Notes under the pieces: model-generated | Databases searched by the model: none | What the model was told of the DNA's origin: nothing | What the model saw: only the letters and a program-made list of their open reading frames with translations | Source of the DNA: Planctomycetaceae bacterium | GTDB lineage: Bacteria; Planctomycetota; Planctomycetia; Planctomycetales; Planctomycetaceae | Assembly: GCA_020426125.1 (NCBI GenBank) | Contig: JAGQQQ010000074.1 | Location: 1-16,251, forward strand | Direction: 5' to 3' | DNA length: 16,251 nucleotides | Position numbers and translations under genes: made by a program | Part shown: in pieces, positions 6,779 through 11,236 of the stretch | Position numbering within the stretch: the first letter of the stretch is position 1 | Layout of the letters: each line of letters starts with the position of its first letter

Positions 6779-8380
6779 TTAACCGATGCCGAGTTGGCCT
6801 TCGTCCTTGAAGAGCTTGTATTCGACGGCATCGACTAACGCGAGCCAGCTGGCTTCGATGACGTTTTCGCTGACTCCGATGGTGCTCCAGACGTCCTTTT
6901 CGTCAGCACTCTCAATGACCACGCGGACGCTCGCGGCAGTCCCCTCGGCAGAGTTGATGACGCGAACTTTGTAGTCGACGAGGTGCATATTCTGAAGCAT
7001 GGGATACGTGTCAATGAGTGCCTTGCGAAGGGCGGTGTCGAGGGCATTCACCGGACCATCACCTTCGGCGACTTCGTGGCGGACCGGTCCATCGCCATTG
7101 ATCTTGAGTTTCACCGTCGCCTCGGTGAGCGGCTCGGTTTGCCCGGCCGTCTCGACGTTGACACGATAGTGGATCCGTTGAAACTTCGGTTCGTAGGTTC
7201 CGGCTTCCTTCTTCACGAGCAAATCAAACGAAGCTTCGGCAGCTTCAAATTGATAGCCGACATTTTCGAGTTCCTGGACCCGTTGCAGGATTTTGGTCAT
7301 CAGTTCCTGGTCATGGTCCAGTTTGTACTTTGTCGTCTTTGCAACGATGTTCGACCTTCCGGACAACTCGCTGACAAGGACTCTGCGTTGGTTGCCGACG
7401 ATGTCGGGATTGATGTGTTCGTAGCTATGGGCGATGCGATTGACGGCGTGGACGTGCATCCCTCCCTTATGAGCGAACGCACTCCGACCAACGTAAGCCT
7501 GGTTGCTTCGAAAGTTCATGTTGGCGAGTTCGTAAACGTATCGAGAAACCTCCGTGAGATGGGAGACGCCAGTTCCGTTTTGCATCAGGTGATAGCCGTC
7601 CTTCTTCAGGGCCAGATTCGCCGCGACGGAGATCAGGTCGGCATTTCCGCAGCGTTCGCCGATGCCGTTGATCGTTCCCTGCACTTGGACCGCACCCGCA
7701 TCGACAGCGGCCAGGCTATTGGCGACTGCGACGTCGCAGTCATTGTGGCAATGGATTCCGACTGGAATCTTGAGTTCTTTCTGAACCGTGTTGAGCGTGT
7801 TGACGATCCGCTCGGGGAGGCTCCCGCCGTTGGTATCGCAACAGACGATGATTTCCGCGCCGGCGTCTTGCGCCGCGAGTACCGTTTGCAGGGCATATTC
7901 CGAGTTGGCCGCGAAGCCGTCAAAAAAGTGTTCGGCGTCGTAGAAAACGCGGCGACCCTCGGCAACGAGAAACGCGATTGAGTCGCGAATCATCGCAAGG
8001 TTCTCCTCAAGATCGACGCGGAGAACTTCCGTGACATGGAGATCCCAGGTCTTGCCGACGATCGTGCACACAGGAGCGAGCGAATCGCGGAGTGCCTGCA
8101 TGCCGATATCGTCCTCGGCCAAAACGCCGCGCCGACGTGTCATCCCGAACGCGCAAACCTTCGCGTGTTTGAGCCCCAGATCTCGGACCTGCTGGAAGTA
8201 TTCGGTATCCTTTTCATTCGAGAGCGGATATCCCCCCTCGATGAAGTCAATCCCCAGTTCATCGAGCTTTCGGCTGATCATCAACTTGTCCTGCAGGGAA
8301 AAGTTGACTCCTTCGCCCTGGCTTCCGTCGCGAAGGGTGGTGTCATAGAGGTCGATGGTTCGACGCGAAGTGGAGGACAT
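6779..8380 (-). CDS. cimA: Citramalate synthase, alternate LeuA-related type (first step of threonine-independent isoleucine biosynthesis)
   Basis: 533 aa. N-terminus [23 protein letters not shown]...[12 protein letters not shown] matches the DRE-TIM metallolyase core of the CimA/LeuA_rel clade (DGSQ rather than the DGEQ of LeuA). The HxH metal site is present (GIHCHNDCD), and there is a long C-terminal regulatory domain. Confidence 0.75.
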
Positions 8381-8480
8381 GGCTGTCTGTTCCGATTCGA
8401 GAATTCAGGATCAAATTGTGAGGGGAACCTGTGATTGCGACTGGTTGGAAGTTCTTTGCCAGGAGGAAGGAACCACTGGT

Positions 8481-8523
8481 CCAAAAGAAAAACCCTCTCA
8501 AGCCAGGAGGACCTGAGAGGGTT
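8481..8523 (-). terminator. Intrinsic terminator/attenuator hairpin in the cimA leader
   Basis: Minus-strand RNA reads AACCCUCUCA-(13-nt loop)-UGAGAGGGUU followed by UUUCUUUUGG. That is a 10-bp stem plus a U-rich tract. It lies about 100 nt upstream of the cimA start and about 20 nt downstream of an Ile-rich mini-ORF. Confidence 0.5.
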
Positions 8524-8542
8524 GAGATTGAATCGACCGCTT

Positions 8543-8626
8543 TCAGATCTGCCTGAATATACCAATCATGATGCCGCGAATGATCGCGGAGATATCATCA
8601 AGGAGGGAACGGGAGAAGCCGATCAT
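8543..8626 (-). CDS. Putative isoleucine-rich leader peptide (27 aa: MIGFSRSLLDDISAIIRGIMIGIFRQI) for cimA attenuation
   Basis: ATG at 8626, stop TGA at 8545-8543. 8 of 27 codons are Ile (ATC/ATT/ATA) in a genome of about 62 percent GC. An AGGAAA purine tract sits 13-16 nt upstream of the ATG. The longer 90-aa version of this ORF (from 8815) has a nonsensical Arg/His/Cys-rich N-terminus, and it includes the predicted promoter. Confidence 0.45.
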   Translation of the reverse strand: MIGFSRSLLDDISAIIRGIMIGIFRQI

Positions 8627-8656
8627 GCGGACAGTTTTCCTGCGTAAGGGAACTGT

Positions 8657-8685
8657 ACAATAAGGTGGGCGTTCAGCAGCGTCAA
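8657..8685 (-). promoter_or_regulatory. Candidate sigma70-type promoter for the cimA leader transcript
   Basis: On the minus strand: TTGACG (-35, + coords 8680-8685), a 17-nt spacer, then TATTGT (-10, + coords 8657-8662). The predicted TSS is near 8650, about 25 nt before the leader ATG. Confidence 0.3.
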
Positions 8686-8848
8686 CAGGGAACCTTTCAA
8701 GCGTGGAAAAAAGCGGGCAAAACCGGCAGATTGCGTCGTCTGGATGTCTGTGTCTGGAATGTGATGTGTTCGTCACTTGTTGGGACATCGATCTGTTTTT
8801 CACCCGCGTCAACAAACAGGAAGCCGACGCTCTTCACTCGCCAGGCGG

Positions 8849-10051
8849 TCACTTGGCAAGTTTGATGCGGACGGTTTTGGATCCCTGATTGTCAGTGAGC
8901 TTTCCCCAGTCGTCTTGGCAGCGGAGATAAAGTTGTCCATCTGAGGGGGCGGTGAATGGTTCCCCGTCCGGGATAGGGAACGGTTCCCCCAGGACGTAGT
9001 CCTGAAAGATTATGCCAACCAGCTGTCCGTTTCCCTCCGAGGAATCCGGGCCAGTGGACCACTCTCCCGTTGCTGAGACGACATATTGCTCGCCTGCGAC
9101 GCACTTCGCACGGGAGGCCTGCCATCCTCGCTGAGCATCGACTTTGCAGGCGAGTTGGGCGGCGCCGACAAGCGGCCGGAATCGGGTCTTCCAGTCCCAA
9201 CCGCACAGGTCGGCGCGATAACCCGGTTCGAGATCTTGAAGAAAGAGCTGGTATTCAAATTCGATCTCTCGGAATTGGGTGCCGTAGGCATTGTTGAAGC
9301 CGGTGTTGTTGCCGGCCATCATTGCGAGTCCGAGCGGTTTGAACCGTTGGGAGTAATTCTCGTTGTAACCGAGCAGATGGCACAATACCCACCTCCAGGC
9401 ATAGTTTTGCCAGGAGTCCCCGGTCCGTTCCAACGGGTTATTCACAATGTCATCAAGCGGTTTCGGCTCTTCCGACTTGAGATATTCAATGACGTAAGGT
9501 GGAGCGTTGACTCCCTTTTCTCCGGCTTGAAAGTATTTTCCGACTTCGGCCATTCCCTCGGAATACCAAACCGGCCCAGTGGACCCGAAAGTCAGGCCGC
9601 AGTACGCGTGGATGGCTTCATGCATCGGTGTCTGGTGTTTGGACACCGCGAAGACGACGGCGTCCGCGTCGATTTTCGGTCCCCCCACATATTGCTGCAC
9701 ACGAGTGACGGTCAGACCTGCGCCACCTTGAATGGACGTGAGCCCCTCCGGCAGCATCTTCCCGCGTTCCTCGGGGGACCACCGGGAGAGATCCTCGACG
9801 ACGAACATCTGGATCCGCTTGCGGCAGGGATGGCCAAAATACTTGGAAACCAGTTCAATCATGGTTTCCAGATCCTTCAGAAGTTCGCGCGCGTCAACTT
9901 CCGAGAGATCGGTGTAAATCTGAAACGTCCGCGATTCATAGAGACGTGGGCCGCCTCCAGCGGAACCGGTACGCTGAGCCCAGACCGAATTCCCTGCCAT
10001 CAGGAAGACCGTGAGCAACGCGATACGGAACAGTGTTTTGGTTTCCCACAT
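8849..10051 (-). CDS. Secreted DUF1570-like protein with an HExxH motif (putative zinc-metallopeptidase-like, Planctomycetes-type)
   Basis: The ORF extends to 10129. The ATG at 10051 is directly followed by a signal peptide (MWETKTLFRIALLTVFLMAGNSVWAQ). An HEAIH motif lies in the central domain. My memory links this to the DUF1570 family, which is abundant in Planctomycetes. The antisense ORF 9086..10465 was rejected. Confidence 0.65.
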   Translation of the reverse strand: MWETKTLFRIALLTVFLMAGNSVWAQRTGSAGGGPRLYESRTFQIYTDLSEVDARELLKDLETMIELVSKYFGHPCRKRIQMFVVEDLSRWSPEERGKMLPEGLTSIQGGAGLTVTRVQQYVGGPKIDADAVVFAVSKHQTPMHEAIHAYCGLTFGSTGPVWYSEGMAEVGKYFQAGEKGVNAPPYVIEYLKSEEPKPLDDIVNNPLERTGDSWQNYAWRWVLCHLLGYNENYSQRFKPLGLAMMAGNNTGFNNAYGTQFREIEFEYQLFLQDLEPGYRADLCGWDWKTRFRPLVGAAQLACKVDAQRGWQASRAKCVAGEQYVVSATGEWSTGPDSSEGNGQLVGIIFQDYVLGEPFPIPDGEPFTAPSDGQLYLRCQDDWGKLTDNQGSKTVRIKLAK

Positions 10052-10512
10052 TCGTCGGACATCCTGGTGATGGGCCGCAGAAAACGATCTTGGGATTCTA
10101 CTCTTCCCCTTTGGGTGAGAACACCACACATCGGATCGGAAGATTCCCTTTCTTCCCTTTCCCTTAACCTGAATAGCGGCATCAACCTCATCGATTCAAC
10201 AGTGTCGATGGGGTGCGATGATTCAATTGTCTTGAACTGTGAGTCTTCTTTGCCGATCAGGAACCTCAGGTGTGATGCCCCATCAAGAAGATGGGGAACT
10301 CGCGACTGCCCGAGAGGTCCCGGAGAGACAAGCGGGCCAAAACGCGCAATCCGTAACGATGTGAGAATTGGAACAGAACGGTTCTTACTCGTGAACGGGA
10401 AAGGACGAGCCTCCGGTAGAGCACTCCTTTTCCAAAAACTCAACGAAGTGGTTCGTTTTTTTTGATCCGAACGGACCGGACTCCGTTTTCCCTACGTTGC
10501 CTCGACTTCGCG

Positions 10513-10530
10513 TGTTGCATAATGGCAACA
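10513..10530 (+). promoter_or_regulatory. Perfect palindrome TGTTGC-ATAATG-GCAACA overlapping a -10-like CATAAT; candidate operator/promoter of the NfeD-flotillin operon
   Basis: 6-bp inverted arms with a 6-nt spacer containing CATAAT (10518-10523). A TTGCCT -35-like hexamer sits at 10497-10502, leaving a short 15-nt spacer. The site is 80 nt upstream of the ATG at 10610. Confidence 0.3.
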
Positions 10531-10609
10531 CCCCCGCATGGTTGGAAGAGTGGGCAATCCCGGAGAAGTTGACCGGTTGTCGCCCATTTCATTCCCGGGA
10601 CGAGTTTCC

Positions 10610-11236
10610 ATGGATACCGAATTCCTGACGCAGTGCCTGTCCTGGCCGGCCTTTCCCTTCACCTTTCTACTCGGACTGGTGATGGTGTACTGGCTGATGG
10701 TCATCTTCGGAGGCGGGATCGACATGATCGATCTCGACTTGGATATGGATGTCGACATGGACGCCGACGTCAGTGGATCACTTGCCGACTGGGGGATGAT
10801 GGGGGTCAAATGGTTCAATCTCGGTGATGTGCCACTCATGTTGTGGATGTCGATCCTCGCACTGACCTCCTGGTTGGTGACGATGACCTTCGACAAGGAC
10901 ATGGCCGCGGCGAGCAACTGGCAAATCGTGGGCGTCATCCTTCGCAATCTCGGAATTGGGTTATTCGCAGCGAAAGTTGTGACGCAGCCCCTCAAGGGAA
11001 AACTGAAACACAAAGAACCGCATCCGCCCAAGGAAATGTTGGGAATGCGCTGCACGGTCAAGACCGGGGAACTCACTCCGGAATTCGGGCAGATCGAATG
11101 CCCCATTGAAGACGGAGCCCCGTTGTATTTGAACGCGAGAACCGCCGAGGGAACGATCCCCCGCGGAGCGGTTGTCGAGATTATCGAATATCACCCCGAC
11201 TCCCGGCTGTATTACGTCCGGGGCGTTGACGCGTGA
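10610..11236 (+). CDS. NfeD/YqiJ-like membrane protein (OB-fold, SPFH-partner family)
   Basis: N-terminal hydrophobic segments, an acidic D/M repeat (DMIDLDLDMDVDMDADV), a second TM region, and a C-terminal beta-rich OB-like domain. Sits immediately upstream of a flotillin gene, which is the conserved NfeD-SPFH gene pairing. The ORF could also start at 10538, 24 codons earlier. Confidence 0.65.
   Translation: MDTEFLTQCLSWPAFPFTFLLGLVMVYWLMVIFGGGIDMIDLDLDMDVDMDADVSGSLADWGMMGVKWFNLGDVPLMLWMSILALTSWLVTMTFDKDMAAASNWQIVGVILRNLGIGLFAAKVVTQPLKGKLKHKEPHPPKEMLGMRCTVKTGELTPEFGQIECPIEDGAPLYLNARTAEGTIPRGAVVEIIEYHPDSRLYYVRGVDA

What the first reader, a model, noticed from the sequence alone, without database searches (positions are those of the whole stretch)
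8481..8690. Candidate isoleucine-specific transcription attenuator in front of citramalate synthase
On the minus strand, the 470-bp region upstream of cimA contains four elements in the canonical order.

- A sigma70-like promoter (TTGACG, 17 nt, TATTGT).
- A 27-codon ORF, MIGFSRSLLDDISAIIRGIMIGIFRQI, with 8 Ile codons (30 percent, including II and IMIGI runs) and no Val or Leu enrichment.
- About 19 nt after its stop, a 10-bp GC-rich hairpin followed by UUUCUUUU.
- About 100 nt later, the cimA start.

CimA catalyses the committed step of the citramalate route to isoleucine. An Ile-codon leader therefore gives exactly the amino-acid specificity expected for this gene. A leuA attenuator would be Leu-rich, and an ilv attenuator would be Ile/Val/Leu-rich.

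I could not find an antiterminator pairing by eye. The structure could instead be only the terminator of the upstream DUF1570 gene, which would put it 326 nt past that gene's stop, an unusually long distance.
Basis: partly seen in the sequence, partly recalled or inferred. Interest (0 to 1): 0.8.

Follow-up and report, generated by a model that had tools for sequence, protein, structure and literature searches.

The report
Isoleucine-sensing leader-peptide attenuator before cimA
In front of the citramalate synthase gene (first step of one route to isoleucine) sits a short isoleucine-codon-rich reading frame whose stop codon is part of an RNA switch over a transcription terminator. This classical amino-acid-sensing attenuator is conserved across the phylum Planctomycetota and I found no earlier description of it.

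Summary

**What is in the window (minus strand)**
- A TTGACG-17-TATTGT promoter.
- A 27-codon uORF with 8 Ile codons (8626-8543).
- The strongest intrinsic terminator in the window (8523-8491, followed by a U-tract).
- cimA (8380-6779), which matches TIGR00977 above its cut-off.

**The missing antiterminator exists**
- It is an 18-bp hairpin, 8555-8503, at -20.3 kcal/mol.
- It pairs the last uORF codons and the UGA stop with the 5' arm of the terminator.
- It is the nascent-RNA MFE fold when a ribosome is modelled stalled at Ile codons 15-21.
- It cannot form when the ribosome is modelled at codons 23, 27 or the stop.

**Comparative evidence**
- 51 of 79 cimA loci from different Planctomycetota species show the same architecture.
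- A TTGAC-type promoter precedes the uORF in 54 of 56 loci.
- Codon content in the uORF frame is 18.8% Ile.
- The terminator arm pairs at the uORF stop codon in 40 of 44 loci, against 14.6 expected.
- The antiterminator strand covaries with the terminator arm (0 of 20,000 permutations).
- Neighbouring genes are not conserved.
- An RNA-only pattern scan of metagenomes found Ile-rich uORFs almost only in front of cimA.

No Rfam family matches, and no paper describing it was found. The mechanism is classical ribosome-mediated attenuation, so this is a new member of a known kind. All evidence is computational.

The parts
8680..8685 (-). -35 hexamer TTGACG of the leader promoter
   Evidence: Consensus scan. 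A TTGAC -35 with a 16-18 nt spacer and a TAnnnT -10 lies upstream of the uORF in 54 of 56 orthologous loci.
8657..8662 (-). -10 hexamer TATTGT. The inferred transcription start is near 8650, giving a 5' UTR of about 23 nt with no clear Shine-Dalgarno sequence.
   Evidence: The transcription start is inferred, not mapped.
8615..8636 (-). Possible region 1. It includes the uORF AUG and can pair with region 2 when the leader is not translated.
   Evidence: RNAduplex gives -14.4 kcal/mol between 8636-8615 and 8557-8535. The same pairing appears in the ribosome-free MFE fold. This is an inference; its conservation was not tested.
8543..8626 (-). Leader peptide uORF of 27 codons plus UGA: MIGFSRSLLDDISAIIRGIMIGIFRQI. 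Ile codons are at positions 2, 12, 15, 16, 19, 21, 23 and 27.
   Evidence: Ile-rich uORFs occur at the same place in orthologous loci.
8558..8593 (-). Regulatory Ile codon cluster (codons 12-23). Modelled stalls at codons 15-21 leave the antiterminator strand free.
   Evidence: Ribosome-mask folding. In 50 orthologous loci Ile peaks 4-12 codons before the stop and is rare at positions -1 to -3.
8569..8600 (-). Hairpin inside the uORF, with core CCGCGAUCAUUCGCGG at 8589-8574 and Ile codons 15-16 in its loop. It may be a pause or 1:2-type structure.
   Evidence: It appears in the MFE and centroid folds. Its role is inferred only.
8503..8555 (-). Antiterminator hairpin. The 5' strand (8555-8533) comprises the last three uORF codons, the UGA stop and 10 further nt. 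The 3' strand (8525-8504) is the 5' arm and loop of the terminator.
   Evidence: 18 bp and -20.3 kcal/mol; 0 of 500 shuffles fold as well. It is the MFE of the nascent RNA with a ribosome at Ile codons 15-21 and is absent with a ribosome at codons 23, 27 or the stop. An equivalent pairing lies at the stop codon in 40 of 44 loci and covaries with the arm.
8491..8523 (-). Intrinsic terminator hairpin (regions 3:4)
   Evidence: 14 pairs and -22.4 kcal/mol. In the alignment of 40 loci, 9 of 9 consensus stem pairs show compensatory changes.
8481..8490 (-). U-tract (UUUCUUUUGG) following the terminator stem
   Evidence: A T-run is nearly invariant in the alignment of 40 loci.
6779..8380 (-). cimA, the regulated gene: citramalate synthase, 533 aa
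   Evidence: TIGR00977 equivalog at 676.7 bits against a cut-off of 450. All LeuA models score below their cut-offs. Pfam domains are HMGL-like and LeuA_dimer.

Best explanation
This is a classical ribosome-mediated (leader-peptide) transcription attenuator that couples cimA transcription to the supply of charged tRNA-Ile.

**Proposed sequence of events**
1. Transcription starts at the TTGACG/TATTGT promoter, near 8650.
2. A ribosome translates the 27-codon leader.
3. When Ile-tRNA is plentiful, the ribosome runs to the UGA stop. There it covers the segment 8555-8533, which is the 5' strand of the antiterminator.
4. The terminator hairpin (8523-8491, plus U-tract) then forms, and RNA polymerase stops 110 nt before cimA.
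5. When Ile-tRNA is scarce, the ribosome stalls at the Ile codons in positions 12-21.
6. The stop-codon segment stays free and pairs with the terminator's 5' arm as soon as that arm is transcribed (-20.3 kcal/mol).
7. The terminator cannot form, and polymerase reads into cimA.
8. Without any translation, the start of the leader (8636-8615) can sequester the stop-codon segment, which again favours termination.

**Shown computationally**
- All sequence elements are present.
- The two folds are mutually exclusive.
- Which fold forms depends on the modelled ribosome position.
- The elements are conserved and covary across Planctomycetota.
- The association with cimA is exclusive.

**Inferred**
- The transcription start site.
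- Translation of the uORF.
- The actual response to Ile.
- The role of region 1 and of the in-ORF hairpin.
For: **Window**
- The promoter, uORF, terminator and cimA lie in the canonical order.
- The antiterminator at 8555-8503 folds at -20.3 kcal/mol, and 0 of 500 shuffles do as well.
- It is the nascent-RNA MFE with the ribosome A site at Ile codons 15, 16, 19 or 21. It is abolished with the A site at codons 23, 27 or the stop.
- The uORF is the most Ile-rich of 175 small ORFs in the window.

**Comparative: 80 loci with CimA at 60-82% identity, one genome per species**
- Ile is the top-enriched residue in sense-strand mini-ORFs in 35 of 79 loci, and Val in 10 more. The antisense strand gives 6 of 79 and shuffles give 36 of 790.
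- The full architecture is present in 51 of 79 loci.
- In-frame content over the last 24 codons is 18.8% Ile and 13.3% Val, against less than 3% Ile in the other frames.
- Ile peaks 4-12 codons before the stop and falls to 4-6% in the last 3 codons.
- Leaders prefer ATT (62%), whereas the cimA genes use ATC (75%).
- The best partner of the terminator's 5' arm lies at the stop codon in 40 of 44 loci. Random placement predicts 14.6, and 0 of 200,000 simulations reached 40.
- Cognate stop-region/arm duplexes average -14.8 kcal/mol against -11.2 for non-cognate pairs; 0 of 20,000 permutations reached this.
- All 9 consensus terminator pairs show compensatory changes.
- A promoter precedes the uORF in 54 of 56 loci.
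- The flanking genes show no synteny.

**Independent metagenome scan with an RNA-only pattern**
- 84 loci were found. cimA lies immediately downstream in 59 of them, and 57 of those have an Ile-rich uORF.
- The 15 hits that have enough downstream sequence, no cimA and no Ile-rich uORF look like plain terminators or chance matches. One further non-cimA hit (L130) has a weak 3-Ile ORF.
Against: - There are no experimental data: no mapped transcription start, no evidence that the uORF is translated, and no Ile-dependent read-through measurement.
- The uORF has no obvious Shine-Dalgarno sequence.
- Ile codons 23 and 27 lie so close to the stop that a stall there should favour termination rather than read-through.
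- The ribosome footprint used (-15 to +14 nt around the A site) is an assumed, generic bacterial value, not one measured in Planctomycetota.
- The terminator (-22.4) is slightly more stable than the antiterminator (-20.3), so the switch must be kinetic.
- 20 of 79 cimA loci lack the element. One of them is a close relative, L023 (82% identity).
- My pipelines selected uORFs partly by Ile content. This bias is addressed only through the antisense, shuffle and frame controls and the gene-blind pattern scan.
Confidence: 0.87

Rival explanations
1. The hairpin is simply the intrinsic terminator of the upstream gene (8849-10129). The Ile-rich ORF is a chance reading frame in a long 3' UTR.
For: The hairpin is on the same strand as the upstream ORF and 326 nt past its stop. 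In L011 and L013 a similar hairpin directly follows an upstream gene with no uORF.
Against: - The upstream gene has no homologue near cimA in any of 80 loci, yet the hairpin and uORF are conserved.
- A promoter lies between the upstream gene and the uORF in 54 of 56 loci.
- Ile enrichment is specific to strand and frame.
- The arm-to-stop-codon pairing is conserved and covaries.
Confidence: 0.02
2. The uORF encodes a functional small hydrophobic peptide, and its Ile/Val richness reflects that peptide's properties. The terminator is regulated by something else or not at all.
For: Peptides are similar within genera, for example the Gimesia MSVSNTVC(I/V)SSIIIICEITDSQ and the L022/L024 pair. Functional attenuator leader peptides are known (peTrpL, PMC7298713).
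Against: - Between genera only the Ile/Val content and the nucleotides around the stop are kept; length and sequence vary freely.
- The depletion of Ile in the last 3 codons and its peak at -4 to -12 fit ribosome-footprint geometry rather than a peptide motif.
- The leaders use ATT, the minor Ile codon in the cimA genes of the same loci.
- The uORF is found essentially only in front of cimA.
Confidence: 0.03
3. The conserved CCUCAGG...CCUGAGG hairpin and its competitor form a switch read by a trans-acting factor: a protein, uncharged tRNA or a small molecule. Translation of the uORF is incidental or only auxiliary.
For: The terminator sequence is unusually conserved within clades for a plain hairpin. 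In Geobacter, another member of this enzyme family (leuA) is controlled by a T-box (PMC2700814).
Against: - No Rfam family, T-box included, matches the window at E<=10 or 19 orthologous loci at gathering thresholds.
- The sequence conservation is explained by the need to pair with a stop-codon-containing strand (UGAGG, UAAGGG).
- There is no additional conserved structured domain between the uORF and the terminator; the spacers vary between 12 and 48 nt and do not align.
- This rival does not explain the Ile codon enrichment.
Confidence: 0.05
4. Leader translation controls cimA after transcription, for example through Rho-dependent polarity, mRNA stability or translation initiation, rather than through the intrinsic terminator.
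For: The uORF-to-cimA distance is short in some loci (7-30 nt from terminator to cimA). Reinitiation effects of leader genes, including in Planctomycetes, have been proposed (PMC4833913).
Against: - A strong hairpin plus U-tract is conserved with compensatory changes.
- The terminator-to-cimA distance ranges from 7 to about 250 nt, and is 110 nt in the window. That does not fit coupling or reinitiation.
Confidence: 0.03

Closest known systems
Enterobacterial ilvGMEDA (ilvL) and ilvBN (ivbL) leader-peptide attenuators
   Same: - A short promoter-proximal ORF rich in branched-chain amino-acid codons.
- A stop codon positioned so that a terminating ribosome blocks the antiterminator.
- An intrinsic terminator in front of branched-chain amino-acid biosynthesis genes.

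This description of the enterobacterial systems is established knowledge.
   Different: - The regulated gene is cimA (citramalate route), not ilv genes.
- In the window's clade the leader is Ile-only: 8 Ile, 0 Val and 2 Leu in the window, and a mean of 5.6 Ile against 1.4 Val in the clade. It is not multivalent Ile/Val/Leu.
- There is no sequence or covariance-model similarity to any Rfam leader family.
- The host phylum is Planctomycetota.
leu operon leader (Rfam Leu_leader RF00512) in front of leuA, the paralogue of cimA
   Same: A leader-peptide attenuator controlling the committed condensation enzyme of the LeuA/CimA family.
   Different: - The regulatory codons are Ile, not Leu.
- There is no Rfam match.
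- The gene is TIGR00977 citramalate synthase and scores below the cut-off of every LeuA model.
T-box riboswitch upstream of leuA in Geobacter (PMC2700814)
   Same: It senses tRNA charging and controls a terminator in front of a LeuA/CimA-family synthase.
   Different: - In a T-box, sensing is by direct tRNA-RNA contact.
- Here there is no T-box match.
- A translated Ile-codon-rich uORF is the sensor instead.
Leaderless short-ORF attenuators of mycobacteria (Cys-responsive). This comparison rests on my own recollection of the literature and was not checked here.
   Same: In several orthologues (L019, L021, L022, L024, L031, L042, L049) the uORF ATG lies 6-7 nt after the -10 hexamer. This implies a leaderless leader ORF.
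   Different: - The window's own uORF has a 5' UTR of about 23 nt.
- The amino acid sensed and the phylum both differ.

Membership tests
Classical ribosome-mediated (leader-peptide) transcription attenuator | A short ORF near the promoter with clustered codons for the amino acid made by the downstream pathway | tested here: met
   8 of 27 codons are Ile. Ile is the top-enriched residue in 35 of 79 orthologous leaders against 6 of 79 on the antisense strand. In-frame Ile is 18.8%.
Classical ribosome-mediated (leader-peptide) transcription attenuator | An intrinsic terminator (GC-rich hairpin plus U-tract) between the leader ORF and the structural gene | tested here: met
   The hairpin at 8523-8491 folds at -22.4 kcal/mol and is followed by UUUCUUUU. 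It is conserved, with compensatory changes at 9 of 9 pairs.
Classical ribosome-mediated (leader-peptide) transcription attenuator | An antiterminator mutually exclusive with the terminator. Its upstream strand is covered by a ribosome at the stop codon and left free by a ribosome stalled at the regulatory codons. | tested here: met
   The hairpin at 8555-8503 folds at -20.3 kcal/mol. Ribosome-mask folding gives the expected dependence on ribosome position. The pairing lies at the stop codon in 40 of 44 loci and covaries with the arm. The test is computational only.
Classical ribosome-mediated (leader-peptide) transcription attenuator | The regulated gene belongs to the biosynthesis of the sensed amino acid | tested here: met
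   CimA matches the TIGR00977 equivalog at 676.7 bits against a cut-off of 450. That citramalate synthase starts the pyruvate route to Ile is established knowledge.
Classical ribosome-mediated (leader-peptide) transcription attenuator | Amino-acid-dependent read-through in vivo or in a coupled in vitro system | not testable with these tools
   It needs term-seq or reporter assays under Ile limitation.
Rfam amino-acid leader families (Leu, His, Thr, Trp leaders and others) | A covariance-model match at or above the gathering score | tested here: not met
   There were 0 gathering-level hits in the window. Only chance-level hits appeared in 8300-8900 at E<=10. No leader hit was found in 19 orthologous loci.
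T-box riboswitch | A match to the T-box covariance model (specifier loop and T-box sequence) | tested here: not met
   There was no T-box hit at E<=10 in 8300-8900, nor in the orthologous loci.
Plain 3'-end terminator of the upstream gene | The hairpin is linked to the upstream gene, with no promoter or conserved coding signal in between | tested here: not met
   The upstream gene is absent from all 80 loci. A promoter intervenes in 54 of 56 loci. The Ile uORF is conserved.

The most novel reading that the evidence does not exclude
This would be the first described family of ribosome-mediated attenuators in Planctomycetota. It is a phylum-wide cimA leader absent from Rfam, and four features stand out.

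- The antiterminator is built on the leader's stop codon: UGAGG or UAAGGG pairing with CCUCA or CCCUGA.
- The codon content shifts from Ile-only (Planctomycetaceae-like) to Ile plus Val (Pirellulales-like and Gemmataceae-like).
- Some members appear to be leaderless.
- The regulatory codons provide independent, sequence-only evidence that TIGR00977 enzymes in this phylum serve Ile synthesis rather than Leu synthesis.
Probability: 0.6. Interest if true: 0.55.

Novelty: new member of a known kind. Interest (0 to 1): 0.5.

Why it matters
- **Testable regulation in a poorly studied phylum.** It provides a concrete cis-regulatory mechanism in Planctomycetota, where gene regulation is little studied and amino-acid attenuation was not described in anything I could find.
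- **Functional annotation.** The Ile-specific leader is regulatory evidence that these LeuA-like enzymes are citramalate synthases feeding Ile synthesis. This helps separate CimA from LeuA in annotation and in metabolic models.
- **Evolution of specificity.** The clade-level shift from Ile-only to Ile plus Val codons offers a natural series for studying how attenuator specificity evolves.
- **Conservation explained by mechanism.** The stop-codon-embedded antiterminator explains why a terminator sequence can be conserved across families.
- **Practical use.** The element would make a new Rfam-type family, and could serve as an Ile-responsive expression part for planctomycete genetics.

The mechanism itself is textbook, so the surprise for a specialist is moderate.

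Tried and rejected
- **Rfam scans** of the whole window (gathering), of 8300-8900 (E<=10) and of 19 orthologous loci found nothing relevant.
- **Whole-leader MFE folding** shows only the terminator, with a weak z-score of -2.0. The antiterminator appears only when ribosome occupancy and nascent-transcript length are modelled.
- **Exact look-up of the window's CimA** in the contig index found no record.
- **Upstream-gene orientation** judged by the longest ORF was unreliable in these GC-rich loci; it even picked the antisense shadow ORF in the window. I replaced it with homology tests and promoter detection.
- **Column-wise covariation counts for the antiterminator** were abandoned. MAFFT places the stop-region strand in different registers in different clades. 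I used cognate versus non-cognate duplex permutation instead.
- **The DUF1570 annotation** of the upstream gene is not supported by Pfam even at E<=10.
- **Literature searches** for a cimA or Planctomycetes leader-peptide attenuator found no description (papers read). The library omits most subscription-journal papers, so prior description cannot be excluded.
Full report
**1. The observation**

- The -35 TTGACG (8685-8680) and -10 TATTGT (8662-8657) are separated by 17 nt.
- A 27-codon ORF runs from 8626 to 8543 and encodes MIGFSRSLLDDISAIIRGIMIGIFRQI. It has 8 Ile, 0 Val and 2 Leu.
- A hairpin starts 19 nt after the stop: AACCCTCTCAGGTCCTCCTGGCTTGAGAGGGTT at 8523-8491, -22.4 kcal/mol, followed by TTTCTTTT. 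It is by far the strongest terminator-like site of the 19 in the window.
- The ATG of a 533-aa gene lies 110 nt further on.
- That gene matches the citramalate synthase equivalog TIGR00977 at 676.7 bits against a cut-off of 450. Every isopropylmalate synthase model falls below its cut-off.

The Ile content is not a chance feature.
- Among 175 ATG-to-stop stretches of 15-60 codons in the window, this one ranks first at 30% Ile. The next has 16%.
- With the 3.9% Ile frequency of the window's long genes, P(at least 8 of 27) is 6e-6.

Two details need correcting.
- The upstream gene (8849-10129) has no Pfam match even at E<=10, so 'DUF1570' is unconfirmed.
- The uORF frame is open upstream to TTG 8815. 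That extension overlaps the promoter and has only one Ile.

**2. The missing antiterminator**

Folding the whole leader shows only the terminator. I then modelled a ribosome as an unpaired block from -15 to +14 nt around the A site. I folded the nascent RNA up to the terminator loop, that is, before the 3' arm has been made.
- With the A site at Ile codons 15, 16, 19 or 21, the minimum-energy fold is a hairpin between 8555-8533 and 8525-8504.
- This hairpin has 18 pairs and -20.3 kcal/mol, and 0 of 500 shuffles fold as well.
- Its 5' strand is the last three codons, the UGA stop and 10 further nt. The stop codon UGA (8545-8543) pairs with UCA (8514-8516) inside the terminator's 5' arm.
- With the A site at codons 23, 27 or the stop, this strand is covered, the 5' arm stays free and the terminator forms.
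- Without any ribosome, the start of the leader (8636-8615, including the AUG) can pair with the same strand at -14.4 kcal/mol. This is the analogue of a 1:2 structure.

The four-region logic of a classical attenuator is therefore complete.

**3. Comparative evidence**

A scan of one genome per species returned 80 loci encoding CimA at 60-82% identity. All come from Planctomycetota-type genomes. The closest named relative is Thalassoglobus neptunius (Planctomycetaceae).

*Ile-rich uORF*
- In the 350 nt upstream of cimA, Ile is the most enriched residue of any sense-strand mini-ORF in 35 of 79 loci, and Val in 10 more.
- The antisense strand gives 6 of 79 for Ile, and shuffled sequence gives 36 of 790.
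- The peptides differ widely between genera. Examples are MKNLSQIIACPKIASICDSLIISPVTRI, MSVSNTVCISSIIIICEITDSQ, MNLSINDIQIILIGGIIPARPPLHA and ...VIGVVVVITTG.

*Terminator*
- A hairpin plus T-run follows the uORF stop by roughly 12-48 nt.
- Its core differs by clade: CCUCAGG(U)...CCUGAGG, GCCCUGAGGCC... or ACCCCGGAGC...GCUUCGGGGU.
- All 9 consensus stem pairs show compensatory double changes.

*Antiterminator at the stop codon*
- I searched the whole segment from uORF to terminator for the best partner of the terminator's 5' arm.
- The partner lies at the stop codon (overlapping -3 to +14) in 40 of 44 loci, and covers the stop codon itself in 32.
- Random placement predicts 14.6, and none of 200,000 simulations exceeded 29.
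- The partner covaries with the arm: (G)CCUGAGG with CCUCAGG, GGCCUUAAGGGC with GCCCUGAGGCC, and CUUCGGGGU with ACCCCGGAG.
- Cognate duplexes average -14.8 kcal/mol and non-cognate ones -11.2, with 0 of 20,000 permutations reaching this.
- The window's own stop region pairs poorly with other loci's arms (-5 to -8 kcal/mol) but well with its own (-14.2). This is lineage-specific co-evolution.

*Codon position and codon choice*
- In 50 loci the 24 codons before the stop are 18.8% Ile and 13.3% Val in frame, against less than 3% Ile in the other two frames.
- Ile peaks 4-12 codons before the stop (44% at -10) and falls to 4-6% in the last three codons. This is expected if a stalled ribosome must not cover the stop-codon strand.
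- Leaders use ATT for 62% of Ile codons, whereas the cimA genes of the same loci use ATC for 75%.

*Promoter*
- A TTGAC-N16-18-TAnnnT promoter lies upstream of the uORF in 54 of 56 loci.
- In seven loci the ATG follows the -10 hexamer by 6-7 nt, which implies leaderless leader ORFs.

*Overall count*
- The complete architecture was scored in 51 of 79 assessable loci, a partial one in 8, and none in 20.
- The loci without it are mostly the most distant CimA sequences, but they include the close relative L023.

**4. Is it tied to cimA or to the neighbouring gene?**

- The window's upstream gene, the gene upstream of that one (10492-11106) and the downstream PfkB-family kinase have no homologues within 3 kb of cimA in any of the 80 loci. 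The element therefore travels with cimA.
- As an independent test I scanned metagenome contigs with a pattern containing only the RNA module: TGAGG, a gap, CCTCAGGT, a gap, then CCTGAGGNNNTTT. The pattern holds no coding information.
- Of the 84 loci found, 59 have cimA immediately downstream, and 57 of those have an Ile-rich uORF ending at the pattern.
- Eight more have the Ile-rich uORF, but the contig ends before the gene.
- Sixteen hits have enough downstream sequence and no cimA. Fifteen of them have no Ile-rich uORF, and one (L130) has a weak 3-Ile ORF.
- One further hit has no Ile-rich uORF and ends before any gene could be checked.

The Ile uORF is thus essentially exclusive to cimA.

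**5. Mechanism**

The best explanation is classical ribosome-mediated attenuation responding to charged tRNA-Ile.
- With Ile plentiful, the ribosome reaches the stop, masks 8555-8533, the terminator forms, and there is no cimA mRNA.
- With Ile scarce, the ribosome stalls at codons 12-21, the stop-codon strand captures the terminator's 5' arm, and polymerase reads through.

What is shown, computationally:
- The elements are present.
- The two folds are mutually exclusive and depend on the modelled ribosome position.
- The elements are conserved, covary, and associate with cimA.

What is inferred:
- The transcription start, and translation of a uORF that lacks a clear Shine-Dalgarno sequence.
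- The roles of the in-ORF hairpin (8600-8569) and of region 1.
- The response to Ile itself.

Remaining weaknesses:
- Codons 23 and 27 are too close to the stop to promote read-through. Codon 27 (AUC) is part of the conserved GAUCUGA pairing strand that the window shares with its closest named relative L001, so it is probably structural.
- The terminator is marginally more stable than the antiterminator, so the switch must be kinetic, as in the classical systems.

**6. Specificity**

- Pirellulales-like leaders average 3.2 Ile and 4.4 Val, and Gemmataceae-like leaders 4.0 Ile and 5.5 Val. This suggests combined Ile and Val sensing in those clades.

**7. Comparison with known systems**

- In function this is the same kind of device as the enterobacterial ilv, leu, thr, his and trp leaders. 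It meets every defining feature that can be tested by computation.
- It is not a member of any curated RNA family. There were no Rfam hits in the window or in 19 orthologous loci, and no T-box match.
- In Geobacter the paralogous leuA is controlled by a T-box (PMC2700814). Here the sensor is a translated uORF.
- Full-text searches found no description of a cimA leader peptide or of amino-acid attenuation in Planctomycetes.
- The one paper that mentions leader genes in Planctomycetes concerns reinitiation distances, not this element (PMC4833913).
- The library lacks many subscription-journal papers, so earlier description cannot be ruled out.

**8. Verdict**

- It is a new member of a well-known mechanistic class, with a new gene target, in a new phylum, and not in Rfam.
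- It is not a new mechanism, so interest is moderate at 0.5.
- Confidence in the attenuator explanation is 0.87.

Noticed in passing
window 8543-8815 (-): The leader-peptide frame stays open upstream to TTG 8815 and ATG 8788, giving 90-aa and 81-aa ORFs. A gene caller could annotate this as a hypothetical protein spanning the promoter. Only 1 Ile lies in the 63-codon extension, against 8 in the last 27 codons.
   Followed up: partly
It also has no homologue near cimA in 80 related loci.
   Followed up: partly
L019, L021, L022, L024, L031, L042, L049 (uORF starts): The leader-ORF ATG lies only 6-7 nt after the -10 hexamer, so these leader peptides are probably translated from leaderless mRNAs. 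The window's own uORF has a 5' UTR of about 23 nt.
   Followed up: no
L011 and L013, last 50 nt before cimA: These cimA loci have no Ile uORF, yet a similar hairpin (GCCTCAGGC...GCCTGAGGC followed by TTTTTT) sits about 20 nt before cimA, directly after the end of a conserved upstream gene. Here the hairpin may act as a plain terminator, or it may be a remnant of the attenuator.
   Followed up: no
L023 (CimA 82% identical), 450 nt upstream of cimA: One of the two closest relatives of the window's CimA has no uORF, no terminator and no recognisable leader. The element has apparently been lost or replaced in that lineage.
   Followed up: partly
L029 4602-4647 (-): There is an Rfam match above the gathering score to Acido-Lenti-1 RNA (RF01687; 55.2 bits, E=2e-9) just downstream of cimA in a Pirellulales MAG. 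It is unrelated to the leader.
   Followed up: no
Gemmataceae-like loci (L037, L041, L042, L043, L053, L058, L061): The leader peptides share an 'AAQGVR' stretch. At the RNA level it is a small hairpin, GCGCAGGGAGUGCGC, inside the uORF. It may be a conserved pause or 1:2-type structure in that clade.
   Followed up: no
L029, L059 and L008, between the terminator and cimA: Short tandem or inverted simple repeats lie in the spacer after the terminator: CCCCATT repeats in L029, GGTATGG repeats with an inverted copy in L059, and GATTTTG-like repeats in L008.
   Followed up: no
50 orthologous leaders compared with their cimA genes: Ile codon choice is inverted. Leaders use ATT for 62% of Ile codons, whereas the cimA coding regions use ATC for 75%. 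This may reflect selection for a more slowly decoded codon, or it may reflect nucleotide constraints of the leader RNA.
   Followed up: partly
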